Shown: positions 1,629 to 36,697, counted from the stretch's first letter. The stretch is 38,479 nucleotides of DNA from an uncultured Candidatus Saccharibacteria bacterium (GCA_937996675.1 CALKUN010000033.1:1-38479), one strand, 5' to 3'. Made by a program: numbers and translations. Notes: generated by a model not told the origin, from the sequence alone.

Positions 1629-2107
1629 CAGACGAACAGTTTATGCAAATAGCCATCGATGCTGCTAAAGAAGCTGAGTCAACCGGTGGCGCTGCCATTG
1701 GTGCCATCATGATAAAAGATGGAAAAGTGATTGCTCGAGGTCTGAGTAACCCTTGGGGCAAACGTGATCCTTCAAATCATGGTGAAATCGATTGCATCCG
1801 TAATACTGCTAAAGATAATGATCTAATGGATATGGCGGGCTGTACAATGTATGGCACACTCGAACCCTGCTCGATGTGTGTCGGTGCCGCCCTCTGGGCT
1901 GGTGTGGATCGTATAGTTTTTGGTGCGTATGCCGAAGATGTTGCTGACAATAACTACGAATATGATGACTACAGTTCCGAGCAACTTGCAAAGACGTCTC
2001 GAAGAGCAGCCGATCCTACACGGGGCAAGATTGAAATAGTTGGCGGAGTGTTACGCGAAGAATGTACGGGGCTTCTGAGGGGATATAGGGACTGGCAGAA
2101 ACAATGA
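1625..2107 (+). CDS. CDA-fold zinc deaminase (TadA/guanine-deaminase-like nucleoside or nucleotide deaminase)
   Basis: Zinc-ligand motifs HGE (HGEIDCIRN) and PCxxC (EPCSMCVGA) sit at the canonical spacing. Confidence 0.85.
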   Translation: MTDEQFMQIAIDAAKEAESTGGAAIGAIMIKDGKVIARGLSNPWGKRDPSNHGEIDCIRNTAKDNDLMDMAGCTMYGTLEPCSMCVGAALWAGVDRIVFGAYAEDVADNNYEYDDYSSEQLAKTSRRAADPTRGKIEIVGGVLREECTGLLRGYRDWQKQ

Positions 2108-2649
2108 AGCTTTATAGATTTAGCCCAATTCAAAATCAAGACGAACTATTGGAAGCAATAAAATACATTCACTTTGCCTGTTATAAACTATGCAAACAAA
2201 CCTTTGGCGAATATCTTCCAAATGCTGGGAACATGGGGGTATTCTGTCACTACGATGATGAATACCAGAAATTAGTAGCTATTAGGAACCAAATCGTAGA
2301 GCCATCAGACGATCCGAATCAGAAATATTTTGAGCTACTCGAGCCAATAGTTATTCCTGCACACAACGACATTCCAGAAACAACCTATACCCATTTATAC
2401 ATACGTAAACCCGACATCTATCGAGCACAAGTTGGTGATATTGATTTCTTTTTAGACCAGCAAGAGTATGACAAACTCAAACAATCCTTAATCGACGGCA
2501 AAGAGATTAAAGGTGCGAGAGTATTCCCGCGTAAGGATTTAGATATGATTGAACTTTATGATCCAGACGTAGATGCACTTGGTTATGTAAGTACCAATAT
2601 TATGAGTGAAAAAGTGCGAATTAAGTTATCTGACGAGACTAATCTATGA
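2104..2649 (+). CDS. hypothetical protein
   Basis: A 181-aa ORF with an ATGA overlap with the deaminase gene. No motif was recognised. Confidence 0.6.
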   Translation: MKLYRFSPIQNQDELLEAIKYIHFACYKLCKQTFGEYLPNAGNMGVFCHYDDEYQKLVAIRNQIVEPSDDPNQKYFELLEPIVIPAHNDIPETTYTHLYIRKPDIYRAQVGDIDFFLDQQEYDKLKQSLIDGKEIKGARVFPRKDLDMIELYDPDVDALGYVSTNIMSEKVRIKLSDETNL

Positions 2650-2704
2650 TTACAAATTTGTCAGTTCGCTGGTGGGCAAATATTGAAAGGTTTTATCATA
2701 ATTT

Positions 2705-5572
2705 ATGTCCACAAAAACGTACATATATAAACTAAGATATAAGTATCAATTTTGGTACAGAAGTTTTTTATGGTGCGCCTTACTTATACTCGCATGGCTT
2801 ATTTGGGGTTTCATACTTTCATTGCCTGTAATTAATGACATCTTTCCGGGCAGTATCAAAGTATTAGATAAAGGCAACACTCTCGGTTATTTGTCTGCTG
2901 TTCTTGCAATCCAAATACCTTTGTTTATTTTGTTTTTAGAAAAGATGGCAAACTCTGGGTACATCTACAGAAAACTACTTCCTCGGGTAGTAAGCTTTCG
3001 CGAAATCATAACCTTGTTACTTGTTGGCAGTACGTTGATCTTAGTATCGCCTCGTGAGTCTTTTTTGTACTTTCCTGTTCTCCTATTGTTTTGGTTAAAC
3101 ATAATAGCAATATATCGCGCCCTAACAACTGTTTTTCAACCAGATCTTTTTGATACACAAATTAACGATTTTCTAAAGCAGTCCGTGAACAAATCATTTG
3201 ATAAAATGCTTGAACACAGAAAGCAACACAACGAATTCTACAAACAACTCGAAGAACTAGAAACAGTAAAAAGATCATTCCTGAAAGCTCGGCCAGACGA
3301 TGATTTAATTAACCTAGAAATTCGTTCAGAAAAATCAGGTTTTATAAACAATATAGATCTCGCAACTATAGTTCGTATTAGAGATAAAGAATTCAACATT
3401 ATTGGTGAAACAAAGGATACTTCGCAGCAAAACAGAAAAAGTTTGGCCATAGTGGTCAATCTTAATGTGTCTCCCACAAATTCAATCAAAAGGGATCGTA
3501 CGCTTATGACAATCTCTATCCCCAAAGATTACTCTAATACTGCAAAACTACGTAAACCGCTTGTTAAATGCTTCGAGATCTTACCGCAGAGCGATATTGA
3601 TGTGCGCTGGCTTGAAGAATTACTGGGTGAGTTTGATCAGCAATTAAATAAAGCAATATTATCAAGTGACACGATACTCATTAATCAAACTTTCACTCAG
3701 TTACAAGTCGTATTAGATAGCGTCGATGACTTTATTAAATCCAAACAGGAAGATGATTATAAACTTGGTCAGGCTTTTGAAGAAATTAGTCGCTTTGCGG
3801 GCGATGAATTAAGCACTGGTCTAGAGAAGATGTTTGAAATTTTAAGTGATCTTACTGCAAAATCAGTAAGGTACGACCAGCCGGATATCAACAGAGAAAT
3901 TATTCGATTTATATATGGCAACTCGCTAAATTGTATACATTCAAAAAATATCACTTCAATAGCTCGGTATGATAGGTTACTGATTAATGCAATCTCTTTA
4001 TTTGTATATTCAAATGCCTGGAATAAAAATCTCAGTACTACACAACGCGACCTAAGAGAATCTTTGCTTAGCAGACTTAAGGAGCATACTGACATTCTTG
4101 TCTATGAACTCAAAGAGCTAAAAGAAGACATTACAAAGTCTGATGACGGTACGCTAGAGCTTTGGTTTGAAAGACGATTAAGTGATATTAGAAGTTTAAC
4201 CTTAGCTTCGTTTTCTAATAAGCTTGATGTACCGTTTATGAAATTCGTAGAAATACTTGAAAGAGTCGAGCGTGATCGCCACTACGACCGGCTTGAACTC
4301 GATACCTACTCACTAATTAAATGCAATATTCTTATTATTGCCGCCTATATTCACAATAAAGGTGAACTTAATGGTGAATTCGGCAAACTAATAGTAAATA
4401 TTATTAGCCGATGGTCTGAACACGAACTAACTCGAACTTTCTTAGAATGTACAGACAATGATTATGCTGATAAATGGCACGTAAACACTCGAGACCTACT
4501 TGCAGATGGTGAGATGCACTCCGTGCCAAGCTACGACCTTGTATTAAAGTCGCTCTGGGTTGAAATAATGCTCGGTAAAACTATTCATCAAAACACCGAT
4601 ATTTATGGAGAGGAAAAGTTATTTGAGCAAACCTTATTCTTCTCCAATGCAACTTCATCCAACGAGAACAATCCATTACTAAATATTGTTGCTGAAAAGG
4701 ACCCTGAAAATACAACCAAACTAAAAGACTTAATAGAAAAGTTAATTGAAATACGCCACAACTGGGAGAATACGAAACTCATTGACGAAGATATAGATGA
4801 TGAGAAGGTAGTAAAACTTCGAGAAAATGTTAATAAAGCATATATTGAAGCATCTTTGGCTGAAAAACTTTTTGGGAAAGAGCTAATTAAATCAGATGAA
4901 TCAAGAAAAGAAAAAGGATTTATGCAATCAGGCATTAATCAAGTCTTCGATAAAGAAGCGTTCATTAAAGATTGGCATATAGGATACGGCAATGAATTCA
5001 TGGGTGAACAGCTAGGCTCTCAAATAGCCACAAACCAGGATAGGAATATTCTGAGTAACCTTGCCAGTAAGCCGGTTACCAGAAAAGATATAGCGAAATT
5101 ATTAACCAAGCTATCTCTAATGGACGGCAGAAAATGGTTAGTGGTAGCAGTAGGGATGGGCATCTGGAGTATTGAGCACAGGTATAAAAACTTCGTAACC
5201 ATGGCCGATGGAGGCAATGAACTCTACTTTAAAAGCATTGATCAAATTTTGCCAGTTCAGACAATCTACATGGATGGCCTGCACGAAGGACTATATTTCA
5301 TTGACGCAGGTAAAATTGGCACTTTGACTGTTAAGTCTGATAACTATGATCCACCTGTTAAGGTGGAGGTAACGGCTTACTCAAAAAGTGACTATTTAAT
5401 GGATGGCCTCATAAGCACATCTCCAAAATGGCTGACTGATAAAGGGGATGAAGCAGCACAAAGAGCGTACTTAGGGACAAAGGCTCGATTATTAGTAGAA
5501 AGGGTTTTCAAACATACCGCCCCTAAGAAGACTGTGGTGTACTTCCTGAAGTCAGATGATGACATAATTTAG
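2705..5572 (+). CDS. large membrane-anchored hypothetical protein (955 aa)
   Basis: A single long ORF in the most AT-rich stretch. The first ~150 aa contain about four hydrophobic helices and are followed by ~800 aa of predicted soluble, helix-rich sequence. No catalytic motif was recognised. Confidence 0.75.
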   Translation: MSTKTYIYKLRYKYQFWYRSFLWCALLILAWLIWGFILSLPVINDIFPGSIKVLDKGNTLGYLSAVLAIQIPLFILFLEKMANSGYIYRKLLPRVVSFREIITLLLVGSTLILVSPRESFLYFPVLLLFWLNIIAIYRALTTVFQPDLFDTQINDFLKQSVNKSFDKMLEHRKQHNEFYKQLEELETVKRSFLKARPDDDLINLEIRSEKSGFINNIDLATIVRIRDKEFNIIGETKDTSQQNRKSLAIVVNLNVSPTNSIKRDRTLMTISIPKDYSNTAKLRKPLVKCFEILPQSDIDVRWLEELLGEFDQQLNKAILSSDTILINQTFTQLQVVLDSVDDFIKSKQEDDYKLGQAFEEISRFAGDELSTGLEKMFEILSDLTAKSVRYDQPDINREIIRFIYGNSLNCIHSKNITSIARYDRLLINAISLFVYSNAWNKNLSTTQRDLRESLLSRLKEHTDILVYELKELKEDITKSDDGTLELWFERRLSDIRSLTLASFSNKLDVPFMKFVEILERVERDRHYDRLELDTYSLIKCNILIIAAYIHNKGELNGEFGKLIVNIISRWSEHELTRTFLECTDNDYADKWHVNTRDLLADGEMHSVPSYDLVLKSLWVEIMLGKTIHQNTDIYGEEKLFEQTLFFSNATSSNENNPLLNIVAEKDPENTTKLKDLIEKLIEIRHNWENTKLIDEDIDDEKVVKLRENVNKAYIEASLAEKLFGKELIKSDESRKEKGFMQSGINQVFDKEAFIKDWHIGYGNEFMGEQLGSQIATNQDRNILSNLASKPVTRKDIAKLLTKLSLMDGRKWLVVAVGMGIWSIEHRYKNFVTMADGGNELYFKSIDQILPVQTIYMDGLHEGLYFIDAGKIGTLTVKSDNYDPPVKVEVTAYSKSDYLMDGLISTSPKWLTDKGDEAAQRAYLGTKARLLVERVFKHTAPKKTVVYFLKSDDDII

Positions 5573-7925: not shown

Positions 7926-8144
7926 ATGGACATATTCGAAAATCAGGAGCCAGAAGAAGTAGTCTCGGATTTTTGCATTCCAAACGAGAAGAAGATTGAG
8001 CTGTTACGATCAATTCTTGAGACTGAATCAGAATCTTCTGTGACATTCAGGGACGCAGAAGAAGTTGCACGCCGACTTGTTTCGTTCTATGAGTCTCTTG
8101 CTGGAGATAGAAAAATAATTCCTGGGCTGCAAGATGAAAGCTAA
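7926..8144 (+). CDS. small acidic hypothetical protein, overlaps the recombinase start (possible directionality or accessory factor)
   Basis: A GGAGGG RBS lies upstream. It overlaps the recombinase gene by 11 nt. Confidence 0.5.
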   Translation: MDIFENQEPEEVVSDFCIPNEKKIELLRSILETESESSVTFRDAEEVARRLVSFYESLAGDRKIIPGLQDES

Positions 8145-9633
8145 CGATAGTAAGGCTGTAATTCTTGCAAGAGTATCGTCAAAAGGACAGGAAGATGAAG
8201 GTTATTCACTAGACTCACAAATCAAATTACTTAAAAACTACGCTGAGAGTAAAGAACTCTGGGTAGCAGAAACATTTAAGATTACTGAAACAGCCTCCAA
8301 GTCATCACAGAGAAAAATTTTTAAGTTAGCAATGAAATATATTGCCGACCATGATATCAAGCACCTCATTATTGAGAAGGTGGATCGACATGTAAGAAAT
8401 TTGCATGATGCGGTAGAAACTCACGATTGGCTTGTTGCAGACGAGCATCGCCACGTCCACTTCGTGAAAGATAGTCTAATCATGCACAAAAACTCGCGAT
8501 CTCAAGAATGGCTAAACTGGGGCATACGCGTTGTAATGGCGAAGAACTATATTGATAACTTGCGCGAAGAAGCTATGAAGGGTTGGGCCGAGAAACTTGC
8601 CCAAGGATGGCTTCCAGCACCACCTCCGCCCGGATATCATACAGTCGTAAAAGATGGAAAACGAATCCATGAACCAAATCCGAAAACGTACCGAACCATG
8701 CAGAAAGCTTTTAAGCATTACCTGAGTCCGAGCGGAAGTATTGATTCAGTTGCCGAGCTAATGACTAAGTCGGGAATAGTAACACGCGGCGGACGTCCGT
8801 ATGCAAAAAGCGCAGTTCATAGACAGTTAAGTAATCCATTCTATATAGGTATAAACTTTTTTGATGGCAAGAGTTACCCAGGCAAGCAAACACCACTCAT
8901 TACTAAACGTATGTTTGATAAGGTTCAGGAAAAACTCCATGGCAAACGCAACCCTAAACAAAGACTACATAATCCTTTGTTTAAAAACATGATTGTTTGC
9001 GGTCACTGCAATAAGGTTGTTACTTGGCAAAAGCAGAAAGGCAAATACTACGGAGCGTGCCAGCGAGATCTACCTGAATGTAAACAAGAGAAATATTTGC
9101 GCGAGTCAGTCATACAAGAACAAGTGATAGACATGCTTGACGACCTGATAAGTCCATCTCAAATGGTAATTGCTTGGCTGACAGACCTTCTGAAGTCAGA
9201 TTTTAAATTGCAGTTAAGTGACACAGAGCAAGCTAAAGCTAATATCGAACATCGCATAGCTAAGATTAAGCGCATGGATGAGATGCTTTACGACGACAAG
9301 TTGAATGGCGATATATCGACCGACCGTTATCGTGAGAAACACGAGGCGTTTATGAGTGAAATTAAAGAGCTCAGTGAGCAGAAAGGAGGCATGAGTCAAG
9401 ACTACGAGGAGAGGTATATGGAAGGTATTACATTAATAGAGCTTACACAGTCAGCAAAACAGCAGTTTATTGACGATGAAGTCGAGGTCGACGAAAAACG
9501 AACTATTTTAACCGAACTTTTCGAAAAAATGGTACTTAAAGACGGATTTGTATCTGTTAAATACACTAAGCTAGCACAAGCAATAGCACGTAAAAGTGCT
9601 CAATCAAGGGAGATTTTAGCATATGGCAAATAA
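8134..9633 (+). CDS. large serine recombinase (integrase type)
   Basis: The N-terminal resolvase catalytic motif is AVILARVSSKGQ...GYSLDSQ. A recombinase domain follows, then a Cys-rich zinc-ribbon segment (CGHCNK...GACQ...C) and a C-terminal coiled-coil-like region. Confidence 0.9.
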   Translation: MKANDSKAVILARVSSKGQEDEGYSLDSQIKLLKNYAESKELWVAETFKITETASKSSQRKIFKLAMKYIADHDIKHLIIEKVDRHVRNLHDAVETHDWLVADEHRHVHFVKDSLIMHKNSRSQEWLNWGIRVVMAKNYIDNLREEAMKGWAEKLAQGWLPAPPPPGYHTVVKDGKRIHEPNPKTYRTMQKAFKHYLSPSGSIDSVAELMTKSGIVTRGGRPYAKSAVHRQLSNPFYIGINFFDGKSYPGKQTPLITKRMFDKVQEKLHGKRNPKQRLHNPLFKNMIVCGHCNKVVTWQKQKGKYYGACQRDLPECKQEKYLRESVIQEQVIDMLDDLISPSQMVIAWLTDLLKSDFKLQLSDTEQAKANIEHRIAKIKRMDEMLYDDKLNGDISTDRYREKHEAFMSEIKELSEQKGGMSQDYEERYMEGITLIELTQSAKQQFIDDEVEVDEKRTILTELFEKMVLKDGFVSVKYTKLAQAIARKSAQSREILAYGK

Positions 9634-32992: not shown

Positions 32993-33010
32993 GCCGTCTT
33001 TTAAACTGGC

Positions 33011-33040
33011 TAAAACACCCCTCGGATGAGGGGTGTTTTA
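33011..33040. terminator. intrinsic terminator after rplA (symmetric A/T flanks)
   Basis: TAAAACACCCCTC-GGAT-GAGGGGTGTTTTA. Confidence 0.75.
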
Positions 33041-33111
33041 GCTTGTGCTTTGGGGCCACCAAACACAATGCTAAGCTGGTAACAGTACCTATAGAAACAG
33101 AGGGAGGAGTT

Positions 33112-33732
33112 ATGCCCGGTATCCCAGGCAGCAAGCCAGTCGATCCGATGGACCGGCTCGTGCCGGACATTATTCGCTTACAGGAAATCGCCACAGCGCT
33201 TCGCGCACTTGGACGCACCATCGTGCTTACGCAAGGAAGCTTTGACCTTGTGCACGTTGGCCACGCCAAATACTTGGCAGCTGCCAAGGCACGCGGCGAT
33301 GTACTGCTCGTAGGTGTCGATAGTGATGCCAAAGTACGCGCCCGCAAAGGTGAAGGTCGGCCCGTAGTCCCGGAGGGTGAACGGACCGAAATGCTGTGCT
33401 TCTTTGAGTCTGTCGACTATGTCATCTTGAAGTCGGCGGAAGCGCCACGCTGGGAGATCATTCGGACGATTTGTCCTGATGTCCTCATCGCGACGTCGGA
33501 AACCTATAGCGAGTCAGATCTTGTCGAGCTAGGGGAGATCTGCGGCGAAGTCGTCGTCCTCGATCCGATGTCCGAGACGTCGACCAGCGCTAAGATCCGT
33601 AAGTCACAGATCGATATTGCGAAGCGACTCGAAACCGCGCTGGCACACAGCCTCAGCGATGCCATTCCCGAACTCGTCAGTGCGACCGTTAGGGACGTAC
33701 TGGACCCCGATAAGAAAGCAGGCATGACATGA
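33112..33732 (+). CDS. cytidylyltransferase-like nucleotidyltransferase (RfaE domain II / TagD-like family)
   Basis: It has the GSFDLVHVGHAKYL (HxGH) motif and C-terminal SETSTSAKIRK (ISxTxxR-like). The ATG at 33112 follows GGGAGGAG. Confidence 0.8.
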   Translation: MPGIPGSKPVDPMDRLVPDIIRLQEIATALRALGRTIVLTQGSFDLVHVGHAKYLAAAKARGDVLLVGVDSDAKVRARKGEGRPVVPEGERTEMLCFFESVDYVILKSAEAPRWEIIRTICPDVLIATSETYSESDLVELGEICGEVVVLDPMSETSTSAKIRKSQIDIAKRLETALAHSLSDAIPELVSATVRDVLDPDKKAGMT

Positions 33733-34565
33733 CCTACTCACGGACACTCATCTGGTGCTACGTGCCGGTGATCCATGAGGGATACCTGCGTTGGTTCGCG
33801 GAACACCCCGGAGCCGATATCGCAATCGTCACACAGTCGGACATCCTGGATCAGCGCTACCTCGTCAAGGACATTCGCCGGCTTCATCCGAACAAAGCGC
33901 AAGCCATGCTGGCCCGCATCTTGAACGTACGGGTGATGACCGTGGGCAAGGACGAGATGCAGCATCTCGTTCGTGGCTACAGTAATGTGGTCATGCCGGA
34001 CGAGCCGATCATGCACGAGCTGTGGTCCACTGTGATGACAGACATTCCAGCCGAGTTTCGGCCGGTGTTCCTGCGCTGGCATAGGGACAATATCCTGCTG
34101 GAATCTCAACCAGCCAGCACAGGCCCCGTTAGCGAAGCGCACGGTGCGTTTTGGGTCGAGGCACAAAGACTCGCTCGGCAAAGCCCGGATTGGTGGCGAC
34201 AGATTGGTTGCTGTGTCGTTCGCGACGGAGAAATCCTGGTCGGTGGGTACAACCACCCACTCCCATCTACCGAGACGGTGCTCTTCCAGGGCGATCCTCG
34301 TGCTGTCTTCAACAAGGGCGTACACCTCGACCTGTCCAGCTTCGTCCACGGCGAAGCGAGTGTGATCAGTCAGGCGGCTCGACACGGTATCGCACTGGAG
34401 GGGACCGACATGTACGTCACCACTTTTCCATGTCCTCCTTGTGCCAAGCTGGTGGCCGAGTCTGGGATCAGCCGCCTCTTCTTTGGCTCCGGCTATTCAG
34501 TCCTAGACGGCAACGAAGTGCTGGCTGCAGCCGGTGTCGAAGTCATAGGGCTGACCATTGAATAA
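33729..34565 (+). CDS. dCMP/CMP deaminase-family protein with an extra ~135-aa N-terminal domain
   Basis: The C-terminal half has HGE (VHGEASVI) and PCxxC (TFPCPPCAKLV). It has an ATGA overlap with the upstream gene. Confidence 0.8.
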   Translation: MTYSRTLIWCYVPVIHEGYLRWFAEHPGADIAIVTQSDILDQRYLVKDIRRLHPNKAQAMLARILNVRVMTVGKDEMQHLVRGYSNVVMPDEPIMHELWSTVMTDIPAEFRPVFLRWHRDNILLESQPASTGPVSEAHGAFWVEAQRLARQSPDWWRQIGCCVVRDGEILVGGYNHPLPSTETVLFQGDPRAVFNKGVHLDLSSFVHGEASVISQAARHGIALEGTDMYVTTFPCPPCAKLVAESGISRLFFGSGYSVLDGNEVLAAAGVEVIGLTIE

Positions 34566-34570
34566 AATAC

Positions 34571-34598
34571 GCCTCCTCACCCCGAAGGGTGAGGAGGC
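34571..34598. terminator. 12-bp GC-rich hairpin between convergent genes
   Basis: GCCTCCTCACCC-CGAA-GGGTGAGGAGGC. Confidence 0.7.
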
Positions 34599-34614
34599 TT
34601 AGTCATTAGCGCTG

Positions 34615-35556
34615 TCAGCGAGGACGACTTCCGAGCTTGACTTTGATGTTTTCAAAGTCAGGGGCATCAACGTCAGGAGAGATGACGTGGCCATGCAGAT
34701 GACCAATGCTCGCACCAGTCAGTGTCATTTCGCCAGCCCGCATGAACTGGGAATAGCCTGTGAGCTTGTAGGAGCGCACAATCCAGTTCACCATCTCGAA
34801 GTACTCCACCATGGCTTCGGGCGACAACGTCGCCGTCGTGACATGATGGCACGTCGGCACGATCAGACAATGCACCTTGGTGTACCTGTACGGGAAGGTG
34901 TTCGGATACACCGACCAGTGCTTGCCGGCCTTAAGCGGCGTATGCCGGAGATTTGGGAAACACATATAGCACTTATCAGCCGCCTGAAGATTCTGCATAT
35001 CTTCCAGCTGCTGCGGCCCGCGAGCTGCAGAAAACTCGTACAGCCGGGAGCCAGCCGGCGCAACACGCACCCAGCGCTGAAAGTACACCATCAGCTTGGC
35101 TTCAACATCCATAACCGGGACATCTTCTCGCATCTCCCACTGCCACAATTCAGTGTCAGGGAACCTCACATCCGCAGGGAAGCTCTCGGCTGCAAACATC
35201 TCGCCGACTCGAGTAATACGCATCTCGGAAGCCATCGGAAGAGCCAGCTCATACAAGCTTGCTCCACCGATGACCCAGACCATCTCGCGTGAGTCACGAA
35301 ATGGCTCAAGAAATGCTTGAGGGTCAGCAACCACCTGAACAGCTTCAGCAACCAAAGGATGTGAGGTCACCACGACGTTGTGGCGATGGGGGAGTGGCCG
35401 GCCGATCGAGTCATAAGTCCTGCGACCCATCACGACCACATGGCCCTCGGTGATCTCACGAAAGTGCCTCATGTCGGACCCAATGCGAGGCCAGGGCAAC
35501 GTGCCCTCGTTACCAATTCCTCGCTGGGAGTCCATCGCAACGATGATGCCGATCAT
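34615..35556 (-). CDS. folA: dihydrofolate reductase fused to a C-terminal HIT (histidine triad) domain
   Basis: The DHFR motifs are IVAMDSQRGIGNEGTLPW and VVMGRRTYDSIGRPLPHRHNVVVTS. The C-terminal ~150 aa end in the histidine triad GHLHGHVIS. The ATG at 35556 forms an ATGA overlap with the thyA stop. Confidence 0.85.
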   Translation of the reverse strand: MIGIIVAMDSQRGIGNEGTLPWPRIGSDMRHFREITEGHVVVMGRRTYDSIGRPLPHRHNVVVTSHPLVAEAVQVVADPQAFLEPFRDSREMVWVIGGASLYELALPMASEMRITRVGEMFAAESFPADVRFPDTELWQWEMREDVPVMDVEAKLMVYFQRWVRVAPAGSRLYEFSAARGPQQLEDMQNLQAADKCYMCFPNLRHTPLKAGKHWSVYPNTFPYRYTKVHCLIVPTCHHVTTATLSPEAMVEYFEMVNWIVRSYKLTGYSQFMRAGEMTLTGASIGHLHGHVISPDVDAPDFENIKVKLGSRPR

Positions 35557-36419
35557 GTCGCCACCGGAATCCCAGGCATGGGTGCGTTGGGGTGATAGCC
35601 ATGCAATTCGAACTGGTCGGCCCGCACCCACTTGATATCGGTCGCGTTGCCGACATACTTCATGAACGGGAGTGGTGGCGAGGATCGCTCATATGCCAGC
35701 TCGTGTGCAGCTGGCAGTTGATCCTCATAGAGATGGGCGTTGACGATGTGGTGATGAAACTCACCCGGGGCATATCCGGTCAAGTGACACAGCGCCAGCG
35801 CGATAGCCGCGTACTGCACCATGTTGGCGGGCACGCCTACGGGTACATCGCCGGATCGCTGCACCATCGTGAGATGGAGCTTGCCATCCAGAATGGTCAC
35901 CTGTACGTGCCCGTGGCAGGGAGCAATGGTGGCTGTCGGCTGATGACCGTAGGCACGCGTCAGATGCCCAGCCTTCCAGTTTGTAATGACATGTGTCTTC
36001 ACTTCGGGGTTGGTCTTGATCTGATCAACGAGTGCGGGCCACTGGTCGAACATCGTGCCGTCAGGGCCGGGGAAATTGGTGAAGACATCGCCGTATGAGC
36101 CGGGACCGATGTCACCAGTCTCAAGGCCGCGTTTGTGACACTTGTTCTCGGAACCCCATGGGTCCCACCAAGTGCAGCCATACGACCGCAGTTCATCGAG
36201 GGTGCGAGCACCGTTGATGAAAGCAACCAGCTCACCGATGGGTGCTTGCCAGAAATTGGCAATGCTCCGCTCGGTGATCATCGGGAATTCTGCGGCGAGG
36301 TTGTACCGCATCGTGAAGTTGAGATACGTCTGCGTCCGAGGACCCTGACGCGTTGGTGACCAGCTGCCGTGCTCAAGAATGGCACGGAGCAGCTGCTGAT
36401 ACTGCGACGGTTCCGTCAT
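35553..36419 (-). CDS. thyA: thymidylate synthase (ThyA family, divergent)
   Basis: The catalytic motif is APCH (IAPCHGHVQV). It also has QRSGDVPVGVPANM and NAHLY. It is translationally coupled to the DHFR gene. Confidence 0.85.
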   Translation of the reverse strand: MTEPSQYQQLLRAILEHGSWSPTRQGPRTQTYLNFTMRYNLAAEFPMITERSIANFWQAPIGELVAFINGARTLDELRSYGCTWWDPWGSENKCHKRGLETGDIGPGSYGDVFTNFPGPDGTMFDQWPALVDQIKTNPEVKTHVITNWKAGHLTRAYGHQPTATIAPCHGHVQVTILDGKLHLTMVQRSGDVPVGVPANMVQYAAIALALCHLTGYAPGEFHHHIVNAHLYEDQLPAAHELAYERSSPPLPFMKYVGNATDIKWVRADQFELHGYHPNAPMPGIPVAT

Positions 36420-36509
36420 ATCTGTATCCTGTTCTGTGAAAGATCGATAGCTCCACCCAATATCCTATCAAAACCCTCGTAGTACTCGAAGCATAAGGAG
36501 AATATTTTA

Positions 36510-36538
36510 TTGACCAACTGCACGTAATCTGTTAAATT
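36510..36538 (+). promoter_or_regulatory. candidate promoter of the rplJL operon
   Basis: TTGACC-17 nt-TAAATT. Confidence 0.45.
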
Positions 36539-36544
36539 ATCTAG

Positions 36545-36697
36545 GTACGAACCGAAGACAGTAGCTGACCCCCGGGTCTTAATCTGCTACCGAGGCCATA
36601 AACACTTCAATATGAATGTTTTCTCGATGTCTTTGGCTGTTCTCCTTGGAGGATAAGTACCAAAGATTTTTTATATCTAAAGAAGAAAAGGTCATTT
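36545..36697 (+). promoter_or_regulatory. structured 5-prime leader of rplJ (L10-leader-like, with an attenuator-like hairpin)
   Basis: The ~150-nt untranslated leader contains CAGTAGC...GCTACCG and GACC-CCCG-GGTC pairings. It also has CTTTGG...CCAAAG followed by ATTTTTTAT about 30 nt before the start codon. Confidence 0.4.

What the first reader, a model, noticed from the sequence alone, without database searches (positions are those of the whole stretch)
34615..35556. DHFR fused to a HIT (histidine-triad) nucleotide hydrolase/transferase domain
The first ~160 aa are a standard DHFR. The next ~150 aa contain a Cys pair (DKCYMC) and end with the triad GHLHGHVIS. I know DHFR-TS fusions, but I do not know a described DHFR-HIT fusion. 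The HIT domain could process a nucleotide adduct or link folate recycling to nucleotide salvage.
Basis: partly seen in the sequence, partly recalled or inferred. Interest (0 to 1): 0.6.

Follow-up and report, generated by a model that had tools for sequence, protein, structure and literature searches.

The report
DHFR fused to HIT nucleotide enzyme
A tiny symbiotic bacterium (Saccharibacteria) makes one protein that joins the folate-recycling enzyme DHFR to a histidine-triad nucleotide enzyme, and this pairing is a fixed part of a previously undescribed gene set for making the DNA base thymine that is shared by many such bacteria.

Summary
A 313-aa ORF on the minus strand (34615-35556) encodes an intact DHFR (aa 1-163) joined without a break to a zinc-type HIT domain (aa ~173-300; CxxC, HLHGH).

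It is not an assembly artefact. About 20 of 61 related genomes carry the same fusion. Others carry DHFR and HIT as overlapping separate genes, and fused and split forms interleave on the HIT tree.

The same or a sister HIT is elsewhere fused to thymidylate synthase or to dCMP deaminase.

In all 30 loci examined, the HIT lies in one conserved module:
- an RfaE-II-like nucleotidyltransferase (NTase);
- a dCMP deaminase with an extra N-terminal domain;
- ThyA;
- DHFR and HIT.

In this order the module usually sits between rplA and rplJ. Relatives without it can hold a ThyX cassette in that slot instead.

In a 251-genome phylum sample, the HIT, the NTase subfamily and the deaminase N-domain are co-inherited.

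No paper describing this architecture was found.

The HIT substrate is unknown. My best inference (about 0.4) is that the HIT cleaves a nucleotide conjugate made by the NTase and so feeds dCMP or dUMP into the deaminase-ThyA-DHFR line.

The idea that it replaces thymidylate kinase was tested and weakened.

The parts
34615..35556 (-). Whole DHFR-HIT gene (313 aa, P0001). The ATG at 35556 overlaps the thyA stop (ATGA). The stop codon is at 34615-34617.
   Evidence: ORF and translation; Pfam; full-length homologues start at the same position.
35068..35556 (-). DHFR domain, aa 1-163. The catalytic and cofactor residues are invariant in the family: W22, D28, F32, R45, T47, L55, R58, G97, G98, Y102, T115.
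   Evidence: DHFR_1 E=6e-41; invariant columns. Foldseek matches to solved bacterial DHFRs, E~1e-17, TM(target) 0.83-0.90.
34654..35040 (-). HIT domain, aa ~173-301. It has a family-specific N-terminal helix (R179-x3-Q183-x3-M187) and a CxxC (C196, C199). It also has the N219-x2-P222-Y223 motif, H229, H237, the M-R273-x-G275 motif, S283 and the triad H286-L-H288-G-H290.
   Evidence: Pfam HIT 25.9 bits, cutoff 21.5; profile against PDB, 3oj7 E=6e-9; conservation in 75 members; model pLDDT 93.5. Z 12.3 to the zinc HIT protein 3r6f.
34618..34653 (-). Conserved basic C-terminal tail (I-K-V-K-L-G-S-R-P); K307 is invariant among the 11 closest relatives.
   Evidence: alignment A1. pLDDT falls to 47-78 here.
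35553..36419 (-). thyA (288 aa), directly upstream and translationally coupled to the fusion gene. It has K-T where E. coli has R126-R127, and a 7-aa insertion before the catalytic Cys.
   Evidence: Thymidylat_synt E=2e-57. HMMER alignment to solved TS; motif across loci.
33729..34565 (+). dCMP deaminase (aa ~136-278) with a module-specific N-terminal domain ('deamN', aa 1-135; motifs YxPVxHxGY, KDIR, PDE, FLRWD). It converges on the fusion gene.
   Evidence: Pfam; alignment A4; deamN found in 9 of 251 phylum genomes, all of them HIT-positive.
33043..33732 (+). RfaE-domain-II-like nucleotidyltransferase (HxGH / ISSTxxR type). Its end overlaps the deaminase start. The true start may lie downstream of the TTG at 33043.
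   Evidence: CTP_transf_like E=5e-16; rfaE_dom_II 109.7 bits, below the 181.5 cutoff; 5x9q E=3e-17; the profile's top 11 scores are the 11 HIT-positive genomes.
34572..34597 (.). GC-rich hairpin (cctcctcaccc ... gggtgaggagg) between the two convergent operons. Probably a bidirectional terminator.
   Evidence: Read directly from the sequence. Not tested further.

Best explanation
SHOWN. The gene encodes a genuine two-domain protein: a catalytically complete FolA-type DHFR, then a zinc-type (CxxC...H...H) HIT domain with an intact HxHxH nucleophile motif. It is co-translated with ThyA.

It belongs to a conserved Patescibacteria module of four genes and six domains:
- an NTase;
- a dCMP deaminase carrying an extra N-terminal domain (deamN);
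- ThyA;
- DHFR joined to, or next to, the HIT.

INFERRED (about 0.4). The module is a self-contained route from a deoxycytidine nucleotide to dTMP, and the HIT domain is a working enzyme in it.
1. The HxGH-type NTase joins a (deoxy)pyrimidine NMP from its NTP to a phosphorylated acceptor, giving an NDP-X conjugate and PPi.
2. The HIT histidine (H288) attacks the alpha-phosphate of that conjugate, or of its deaminated form. It releases the acceptor phosphate and then the free dNMP (dCMP or dUMP).
3. The dNMP passes to the deaminase and ThyA, while DHFR regenerates tetrahydrofolate.

Fusion of the HIT to DHFR, ThyA or the deaminase in different lineages suggests the enzymes work as one assembly. 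The acceptor X and the exact substrate are unknown.
For: Domains and fold:
- Pfam hits for both domains.
- Invariant DHFR and HIT catalytic residues.
- HIT profile matches solved HIT proteins at E=6e-9.
- Confident models, with DHFR matches and HIT matches up to Z 12.3.

The fusion is real and recurrent:
- Full-length copies in about 20 of 61 relatives, and split-adjacent forms in G001 and G060.
- DHFR and HIT ORFs overlap by 17-41 nt in split forms.
- Fused and stand-alone forms interleave on the HIT tree; well-supported branches force at least 5 changes.

Other fusions of the same or a sister HIT:
- HIT-ThyA, P0276.
- HIT-dCMP deaminase, L139.

Module conservation:
- The NTase, deaminase, ThyA, DHFR and HIT are adjacent in 21 loci of the order plus Wolfebacteria.
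- The same holds in all 9 other HIT-positive genomes of the phylum sample.

Co-inheritance in 251 phylum genomes:
- The HIT subfamily is in 11 genomes.
- deamN is in 9 of those 11 and in 0 of 240 others.
- The 11 best NTase-profile scores are exactly those 11 genomes.

Sister module A':
- It has an APH-like kinase, then NTase, then a different HIT subfamily, then deaminase, then ThyA, all in one operon.
- hhalign gives 97% probability and 21% identity between the two HIT subfamilies.
- NTase and HIT therefore recur together in two diverged versions.

From established knowledge:
- HxGH NTases transfer NMP to phosphate monoesters.
- HIT enzymes cleave NMP-X phosphoanhydrides through a His-NMP intermediate.
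- Cdh, a HIT-like enzyme, hydrolyses (d)CDP-diacylglycerol made by CdsA.
Against: - No substrate evidence exists. Fold and profile searches cannot place the domain in the Hint, Fhit, Ap4A-phosphorylase or GalT branch; the Z scores are tied at 11-12.
- A two-enzyme relay merely to turn dCTP into dCMP is uneconomical.
- In module A the HIT lies in the ThyA-DHFR operon, not beside the NTase.
- The third triad residue is Gln in 10 of 75 members. This hints at transferase or phosphorylase chemistry rather than hydrolysis in some members.
- The NTase could serve another purpose, with co-inheritance reflecting only a shared operon history.
- deamN is not detectably related to the NTase or to any solved structure, so its proposed role in binding a conjugate has no support.
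Confidence: 0.4

Rival explanations
1. The HIT domain acts alone, independently of the NTase. It would be a dCTP/dUTP or dCDP/dUDP (or NpnN) hydrolase supplying dCMP or dUMP. This is the role that gp56 dCTPase/dUTPase plays beside Cd, Td and Frd in phage T4.
For: - Trimeric dUTPase (PF00692) was found in only 4 of 61 related genomes. The module genomes therefore lack an obvious dUTP- or dCTP-to-dNMP enzyme.
- G000 has a class I/II ribonucleotide reductase, so deoxycytidine nucleotides arise at the di- or triphosphate level, yet the deaminase needs dCMP.
- In relatives, the ThyX cassette in the same slot can carry a dCTP-deaminase-like gene, a functionally equivalent position.
- The HIT is fused to the enzymes that would consume its product.
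Against: - It leaves the strict co-inheritance with the NTase and deamN unexplained, as well as the NTase-HIT adjacency in module A'.
- From general knowledge, HIT enzymes are poor NTP pyrophosphatases.
Confidence: 0.2
2. The NTase and HIT together bypass thymidylate kinase. The NTase would adenylylate dTMP. The HIT would then phosphorolyse or pyrophosphorolyse the dinucleotide to dTDP or dTTP, using Ap4A-phosphorylase-type chemistry.
For: - G000 (97% complete) has no PF02223 match.
- In the order, 22 of 24 module genomes lack a strong Tmk hit. Among the 36 genomes with neither module A nor A', about 20 have a strong Tmk hit, usually beside ThyX. The two states interleave within genera.
- Tmk was also not found in the Wolfebacteria genome, G083 or G230.
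- The weak 'Tmk' hits in module genomes are adenylate kinases.
- 10 of 75 HIT domains have the transferase-like HxHxQ motif.
- Rv2613c Ap4A phosphorylase matches at Z 11.3.
Against: - Tmk lies in or next to the module in G108, G133 and G143 and is also present in G216 and G287.
- A Tmk-ThyX fusion sits beside an A' module in L139.
- Several ThyX genomes without the module also lack Tmk: G022, G025, G038, G040 and G052. The order therefore seems to have another dTMP kinase activity anyway.
Confidence: 0.1
3. The HIT domain is not a pathway enzyme. It would serve as a dimerisation or scaffold module. Alternatively it would be a regulatory nucleotide sensor, or a Hint-like 'repair' hydrolase that removes stray nucleotidyl adducts (protein or small-molecule AMP/CMP adducts made by the NTase).
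For: - Closest sequence and fold matches are Hint-branch proteins. These include ecHinT, one of whose structures is a complex with AMPylated GlnA (8v1y).
- From general knowledge, HIT proteins are obligate dimers, as is ThyA.
- The Nit-Fhit fusion (1ems) is a precedent for a HIT fusion whose metabolic logic has stayed unclear.
Against: - Near-absolute conservation of the nucleophile His, the phosphate-binding Ser/Thr, the zinc ligands and subfamily-specific residues (R179, Q183, W214, Y223, R273) argues for a specific catalytic site.
- G000 also has a canonical Hint elsewhere (C48, 64 bits), so a housekeeping Hint is already present.
Confidence: 0.15
4. The fusion is an artefact: a frameshift, a misassembly, or two genes wrongly read as one.
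For: Split forms with overlapping DHFR and HIT ORFs exist in relatives, so a single indel can toggle the state.
Against: - The reading frame is continuous.
- A 79%-identical fused copy comes from an independent metagenome, and 10 further fused clusters exist.
- Fused copies occur in about 20 independent genome assemblies and in other CPR classes.
Confidence: 0.01

Closest known systems
Bifunctional DHFR-TS of protozoa and plants
   Same: DHFR is covalently joined to another enzyme of the thymidylate cycle. Here too, DHFR is co-expressed with TS.
   Different: The fused partner here is a HIT domain at the C-terminus of DHFR. TS is a separate upstream gene. In one relative it is TS that carries the HIT, at its N-terminus (P0276).
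Hint-branch and zinc-containing HIT proteins (E. coli HinT 3n1s, E. cuniculi 3r6f, human HINT2 6yi0)
   Same: They share the fold (Z 11.6-12.3), the HxHxHxx motif, the CxxC plus His zinc site and a Ser/Thr before the triad.
   Different: Identity is only 16-20%. This domain has an extra N-terminal helix with invariant R/Q/M, an NxxPY motif and an MRxG motif. The partners are always thymidylate enzymes. The substrate is unknown.
Ap4A phosphorylase Rv2613c (3ano) and the GalT-type HIT transferases
   Same: The fold match is Z 11.3 and includes the N-terminal helix. Some family members carry HxHxQ, as GalT-branch transferases do. JGI labels some members 'ATP adenylyltransferase'.
   Different: The window protein has HxHxH. 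The NCBIfam ATP adenylyltransferase model scores only 13 bits. There is no evidence of phosphorolysis.
NitFhit Rosetta-stone fusion (C. elegans, 1ems)
   Same: A HIT domain is fused to an unrelated metabolic enzyme, and the two occur as separate genes in other lineages.
   Different: The partner (nitrilase-like against DHFR), the lineage and the HIT branch all differ.
Phage T4 dNTP-synthesis set (gp56 dCTPase/dUTPase, Cd, Td, Frd) - from general knowledge
   Same: It has the same core trio (dCMP deaminase, thymidylate synthase, DHFR) plus an enzyme that makes the monophosphate substrate, and it is thought to act as a complex.
   Different: The extra enzymes here are an HxGH NTase and a HIT, not a MazG/dUTPase-type hydrolase. 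No viral relative of this HIT was found.
CdsA / Cdh pair of E. coli - from general knowledge; Cdh fold match 2pof Z 5.0
   Same: A cytidylyltransferase makes (d)CDP-X from (d)CTP, and a HIT-like hydrolase splits it to (d)CMP plus X-phosphate. This is the chemistry proposed here.
   Different: The enzyme families differ (membrane CdsA against soluble HxGH NTase), and Cdh is only a remote fold relative. The acceptor X is unknown here.

Membership tests
Dihydrofolate reductase, FolA type (Pfam PF00186) | Profile match above the curated threshold over the whole domain | tested here: met
   140.3 bits against a cutoff of 25; aa 1-163 cover profile positions 1-158 of 159.
Dihydrofolate reductase, FolA type (Pfam PF00186) | Catalytic carboxylate and folate/NADPH-binding residues (E. 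coli D27, W22, F31, R44, T46, L54, R57, G95-G96, Y100, T113) | tested here: met
   D28, W22, F32, R45, T47, L55, R58, G97-G98, Y102 and T115 are invariant in 11 family members.
Dihydrofolate reductase, FolA type (Pfam PF00186) | DHFR fold | tested here: met
   Foldseek E~1e-17 and TM(target) 0.83-0.90 to solved bacterial DHFRs, using a model with pLDDT 86.9.
Dihydrofolate reductase, FolA type (Pfam PF00186) | NADPH-dependent reduction of dihydrofolate | not testable with these tools
   Needs an enzyme assay. CPR folA genes were reported to complement E. coli (PMC11974145), but this protein was not among them.
HIT superfamily (Pfam PF01230) | Profile match above the curated threshold | tested here: met
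   25.9 bits (27.1 for the domain alone) against a cutoff of 21.5. The family profile matches solved HIT proteins at E=6e-9.
HIT superfamily (Pfam PF01230) | H-phi-H-phi-H-phi-phi motif with the central nucleophilic His | tested here: met
   H286-L-H288-G-H290-V-I. H286 and H288 are invariant in 75 members; H290 is His in 65 and Gln in 10.
HIT superfamily (Pfam PF01230) | HIT alpha+beta fold | tested here: met
   Domain model pLDDT 93.5. VIA Z 12.3 (3r6f), 11.6 (HINT2) and 11.3 (Rv2613c). Foldseek E 5e-6.
HIT superfamily (Pfam PF01230) | Zinc site CxxC + His + first triad His (in the zinc-containing subset) | tested here: met
   C196, C199, H237 and H286 are conserved in at least 74 of 75 members. 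Metal binding itself is not testable here.
Hint branch (nucleoside phosphoramidase / acyl-AMP hydrolase) | Closest relatives are Hint proteins, and branch-specific substrate residues are present | tested here: inconclusive
   The best sequence and fold hits are Hint-like, but at 16-20% identity and tied with the Ap4A phosphorylase. The ribose-binding Asp position is Asn219 by the HMMER alignment.
GalT / Ap4A-phosphorylase branch (nucleotidyl transferases and phosphorylases) | HxHxQ motif or a phosphorylase-specific active site | tested here: inconclusive
   The window protein has HxHxH, and 10 of 75 relatives have HxHxQ. 3ano matches at Z 11.3 and GalT at Z 6.5-7.3. The NCBIfam ATP adenylyltransferase model gives 13 bits against a cutoff of 290.
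Bifunctional DHFR-TS | DHFR and thymidylate synthase in one polypeptide | tested here: not met
   ThyA is a separate ORF (35553-36419) that overlaps the DHFR start by 4 nt.

The most novel reading that the evidence does not exclude
The module may be a 'handle'-based or kinase-independent route of pyrimidine deoxynucleotide synthesis. The NTase would attach a nucleotidyl or phospho-alcohol handle. The deaminase, through its extra N-domain, would work on the conjugate. The HIT would then remove the handle by hydrolysis or phosphorolysis. Free dU nucleotides would never accumulate, or dTDP would be formed without thymidylate kinase. That would be a new step in one of the best-studied pathways of central metabolism.
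Probability: 0.15. Interest if true: 0.85.

Novelty: new variant of a known kind. Interest (0 to 1): 0.65.

Why it matters
Thymidylate synthesis (dCMP deaminase, ThyA, DHFR) is textbook biochemistry and a classic drug target. Yet here two extra nucleotidyl-transfer enzymes, an HxGH NTase and a HIT, are locked into the pathway. They are strictly co-inherited with it and repeatedly fused to it across a large bacterial radiation. This implies a required reaction that the textbook pathway lacks.

The finding gives a defined, testable four-gene system for discovering that reaction. It also assigns a context to a HIT subfamily with hundreds of unnamed members and to an orphan deaminase N-domain. Finally, it shows that in Saccharibacteria the rplA|rplJ junction is a swap site for alternative thymidylate cassettes (ThyX against ThyA-DHFR-HIT). 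That bears on how these host-dependent organisms obtain DNA precursors.

Tried and rejected
- Complex prediction of ThyA (A6) with the HIT domain (A3): the machine was busy three times, then gave 'no answer', score 0.00. This is not evidence either way.
- Fold search with the full-length model returned only DHFRs. A domain-only model was needed.
- The genome-contig scan with A1 used DHFR patterns and mostly returned ordinary DHFRs. Only the Wolfebacteria locus L011 was useful.
- The viral-contig scan failed with A3 because no conserved stretch was available. With A2 it found no relative.
- deamN as a degenerate copy of the NTase: hhalign probability 0.7%. deamN against PDB: nothing below E=0.07. 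deamN against the N-extension of the A' deaminase: no similarity.
- Loss of the ThyA Arg-Arg pair as a marker of an unusual substrate: rejected. The first basic residue is kept (K/R). RR is retained in the module ThyAs of G060 and Wolfebacteria. The canonical ThyA of G016 has K-A.
- 'HIT replaces thymidylate kinase': pursued, then downgraded (see rivals).
- The weak 'Tmk' hits in module genomes are adenylate kinases.
- The APH-like kinase of module A' has no homologue in G000. Its fusion to the NTase is unique to G016 among 1132 homologues.
- Literature searches and three papers read gave nothing on a DHFR-HIT protein.
- An earlier-findings search by sequence found no copy on other DNA.

Full report
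**1. The observation**

The stated coordinates are a minus-strand ORF (34615-35556, 313 aa, P0001) with no internal stop.
- Pfam finds DHFR_1 over aa 1-163 (E=6e-41).
- Pfam finds HIT over aa 226-294 (25.9 bits, above the 21.5 gathering score), with weaker DcpS_C and CwfJ_C_1 matches. Both of those are HIT-like families.
- The ATG at 35556 overlaps the stop of the upstream thymidylate synthase gene (35553-36419, ATGA). All homologues start at this position, so the longer GTG ORF is not the gene.
- A GC-rich hairpin (34572-34597) separates the gene from the convergent deaminase gene.

**2. The fusion is real and recurrent**

- The protein collection holds 11 full-length relatives (31-100% identity, 309-330 aa), all unnamed.
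- Aligned (A1), they keep every DHFR catalytic residue. On the HIT side they keep C196, C199, H237, H286, H288, H290, N219, P222, Y223, R273 and K307.
- The window's genome (G000) is 1.2 Mb in 163 contigs and 97% complete.
- Of 61 related genomes, about 20 carry a full-length fused gene without stops. G001 and G060 carry DHFR and HIT as adjacent separate genes.
- Stand-alone HITs of about 150 aa found by a profile search are the unfused state of the same arrangement. That search gave 643 representatives at E<1e-10, a mix of about 150-aa and about 310-340-aa proteins. In the unfused state the DHFR and HIT ORFs overlap by 17-41 nt.
- On a tree of 75 HIT domains, fused and free forms interleave. 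The quick tree needs 17-18 changes, and well-supported branches force at least 5.
- The fusion is therefore one state of a gene pair that fuses and splits easily. It is not an artefact.

**3. The HIT domain**

- A profile of the HIT parts matches solved HIT proteins from the CxxC to the triad (3oj7 E=6e-9).
- A domain-only AlphaFold model is confident (pLDDT 93.5).
- The model matches these solved structures:

| Structure | Z |
|---|---|
| Zinc-containing HIT protein 3r6f | 12.3 |
| Human HINT2 | 11.6 |
| M. tuberculosis Ap4A phosphorylase Rv2613c | 11.3 |
| Fhit | 9.3 |
| Aprataxin | 8.5 |
| GalT | 6.5-7.3 |

- The fold is certain, but the branch is not resolved.
- Across 75 members, Y223, G275, H286 and H288 are invariant. 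R179, Q183, M187, C196, C199, W214, N219, P222, H229, H237 and R273 are at least 90% conserved.
- The third triad position is His in 65 members and Gln in 10.
- This is a distinct, catalytically intact HIT subfamily with its own N-terminal helix motif.
- G000 also has a canonical Hint elsewhere.

**4. Context: a conserved module**

The window reads, in order:
- rplK and rplA;
- NTase (33043-33732, +);
- deamN-dCMP deaminase (33729-34565, +);
- DHFR-HIT (-) and ThyA (-), converging on the deaminase;
- rplJ and rplL.

tblastn of these proteins against 21 fetched loci shows the same four genes in every fusion-bearing relative. In the window's order they always lie between rplA and rplJ. The same four genes occur in G060 and in a Wolfebacteria MAG.

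I drew a 251-genome sample of the phylum:
- The HIT subfamily is present in 11 genomes of 9 families.
- All 9 that I fetched have the whole module.
- The deaminase N-domain occurs in 9 of those 11 and in none of the other 240.
- The 11 best scores of an NTase profile are exactly those 11 genomes.

The NTase is an RfaE-domain-II-like HxGH nucleotidyltransferase that scores below the equivalog cutoff.

**5. More fusions and a sister module**

- In a Paceibacterota contig the HIT is fused to the N-terminus of ThyA (P0276, 464 aa, motif HLHGQ). The NTase, deaminase and a separate DHFR lie alongside.
- Elsewhere ThyA is followed directly by the HIT.
- A sister module (A') occurs in G016, G176, G202 and metagenomic contigs. 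Its order is DHFR, APH-like kinase, NTase, a different HIT subfamily, N-extended deaminase, then ThyA.
- hhalign gives 97% probability and 21% identity between the two HIT subfamilies.
- In one Saccharimonadales MAG that HIT is fused to the dCMP deaminase (L139).
- HIT domains are thus found fused to each of the three core enzymes, and NTase and HIT recur together in two diverged versions.

**6. Alternative cassettes and the thymidylate-kinase lead**

- In the order, genomes without the module carry a tandem ThyX (550-650 aa), often with Tmk beside it.
- In G038 and G022 this cassette sits in the same rplA|rplJ slot, with SHMT and sometimes a dCTP-deaminase-like gene.
- Tmk was not found in G000, nor in 22 of 24 module genomes of the order. 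This suggested that the NTase and HIT might bypass Tmk.
- The lead weakened on three counts:
  - Tmk lies in or next to the module in G108, G133 and G143 and is present in G216 and G287.
  - A Tmk-ThyX fusion neighbours an A' module.
  - Several ThyX genomes also lack Tmk.
- Trimeric dUTPase is rare in the order (4 of 61).
- G000 has a class I/II RNR.
- The source of dCMP or dUMP in module genomes is therefore an open step that the extra enzymes could fill.

**7. Explanation**

*Shown:* a bifunctional DHFR-HIT with intact active sites, translationally coupled to ThyA. It is a core, co-inherited part of a Patescibacteria thymidylate module that always includes an HxGH NTase and an N-extended dCMP deaminase.

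*Inferred (about 0.4):* the NTase makes a (deoxy)pyrimidine NDP-X conjugate from an NTP. The HIT cleaves it through a His288-NMP intermediate and delivers dCMP or dUMP to the deaminase/ThyA/DHFR assembly.

*Rivals:*
- HIT acting alone on dNTP or dNDP (0.2);
- a non-pathway scaffold, sensor or repair role (0.15);
- a Tmk bypass (0.1);
- an artefact (0.01).

None can be settled without biochemistry.

**8. Novelty**

Both domains belong to known families. The following are not described in the literature I could search:
- the DHFR-HIT architecture;
- this HIT subfamily;
- its obligate partnership with an NTase and an orphan deaminase domain;
- the cassette swap with ThyX.

Noticed in passing
window 35553-36419 (-): By HMMER alignment, ThyA has K-T where E. 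coli has R126-R127, plus a 7-aa insertion (AGHLTRAYGHQ) before the catalytic Cys. Across loci the pattern is K/R-T-H with the insert in this order. G060 and Wolfebacteria keep RR. The canonical ThyA of G016 has K-A. The pattern is therefore not diagnostic of an unusual substrate.
   Followed up: partly
window 32993-36697; L124 (G038), L125 (G022), L115 (G016): The rplA|rplJ junction is a swap site for alternative thymidylate cassettes in this order. It holds either NTase/deaminase/ThyA/DHFR-HIT, or tandem ThyX with SHMT (plus Tmk or a dCTP-deaminase-like gene), or the A' module with an APH-like kinase.
   Followed up: partly
window 33729-34133 (+): The 135-aa N-terminal domain of the dCMP deaminase carries the motifs YxPVxHxGY, KDIR, PDE and FLRWD. 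It has no detectable relative in PDB and no significant similarity to the neighbouring NTase. It occurs only in HIT-positive genomes.
   Followed up: partly
G000 contigs C36, C58, C114, C161 (ThyX) and C107, C118 (dUTPase): G000 has four ThyX and two dUTPase matches on small contigs. Its module-bearing relatives have none, and G000 is 1.2 Mb against 0.8-0.9 Mb for relatives. These contigs may be foreign (phage or another organism in the bin).
   Followed up: no
L139 (GCA_025450795.1, JANRHI010085298.1) 2028-4289 and 8094-9077: One Saccharimonadales contig carries two unusual fusions: Tmk-ThyX (753 aa) and HIT-dCMP deaminase (327 aa).
   Followed up: no
L115 8446-10023 (G016) against L136 4009-4563 (G176): The NTase part of the G016 kinase-NTase fusion is 81% identical to the NTase of G176, which belongs to a different family of the phylum. 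This suggests recent horizontal transfer of the A' module. The kinase-NTase fusion itself is unique among 1132 kinase homologues.
   Followed up: partly
relatives G002, G020, G027, G054 and others: ThyX in this order is a tandem duplication (two Thy1 domains in one 550-650-aa ORF).
   Followed up: no
L117 5286-5864: A DUF1599 gene and a dUTPase/DCD gene lie directly upstream of the HIT-ThyA fusion in the Paceibacterota contig.
   Followed up: no
window 34572-34597: An 11-bp GC-rich inverted repeat lies between the convergent deaminase and DHFR-HIT genes. It is probably a bidirectional terminator.
   Followed up: no
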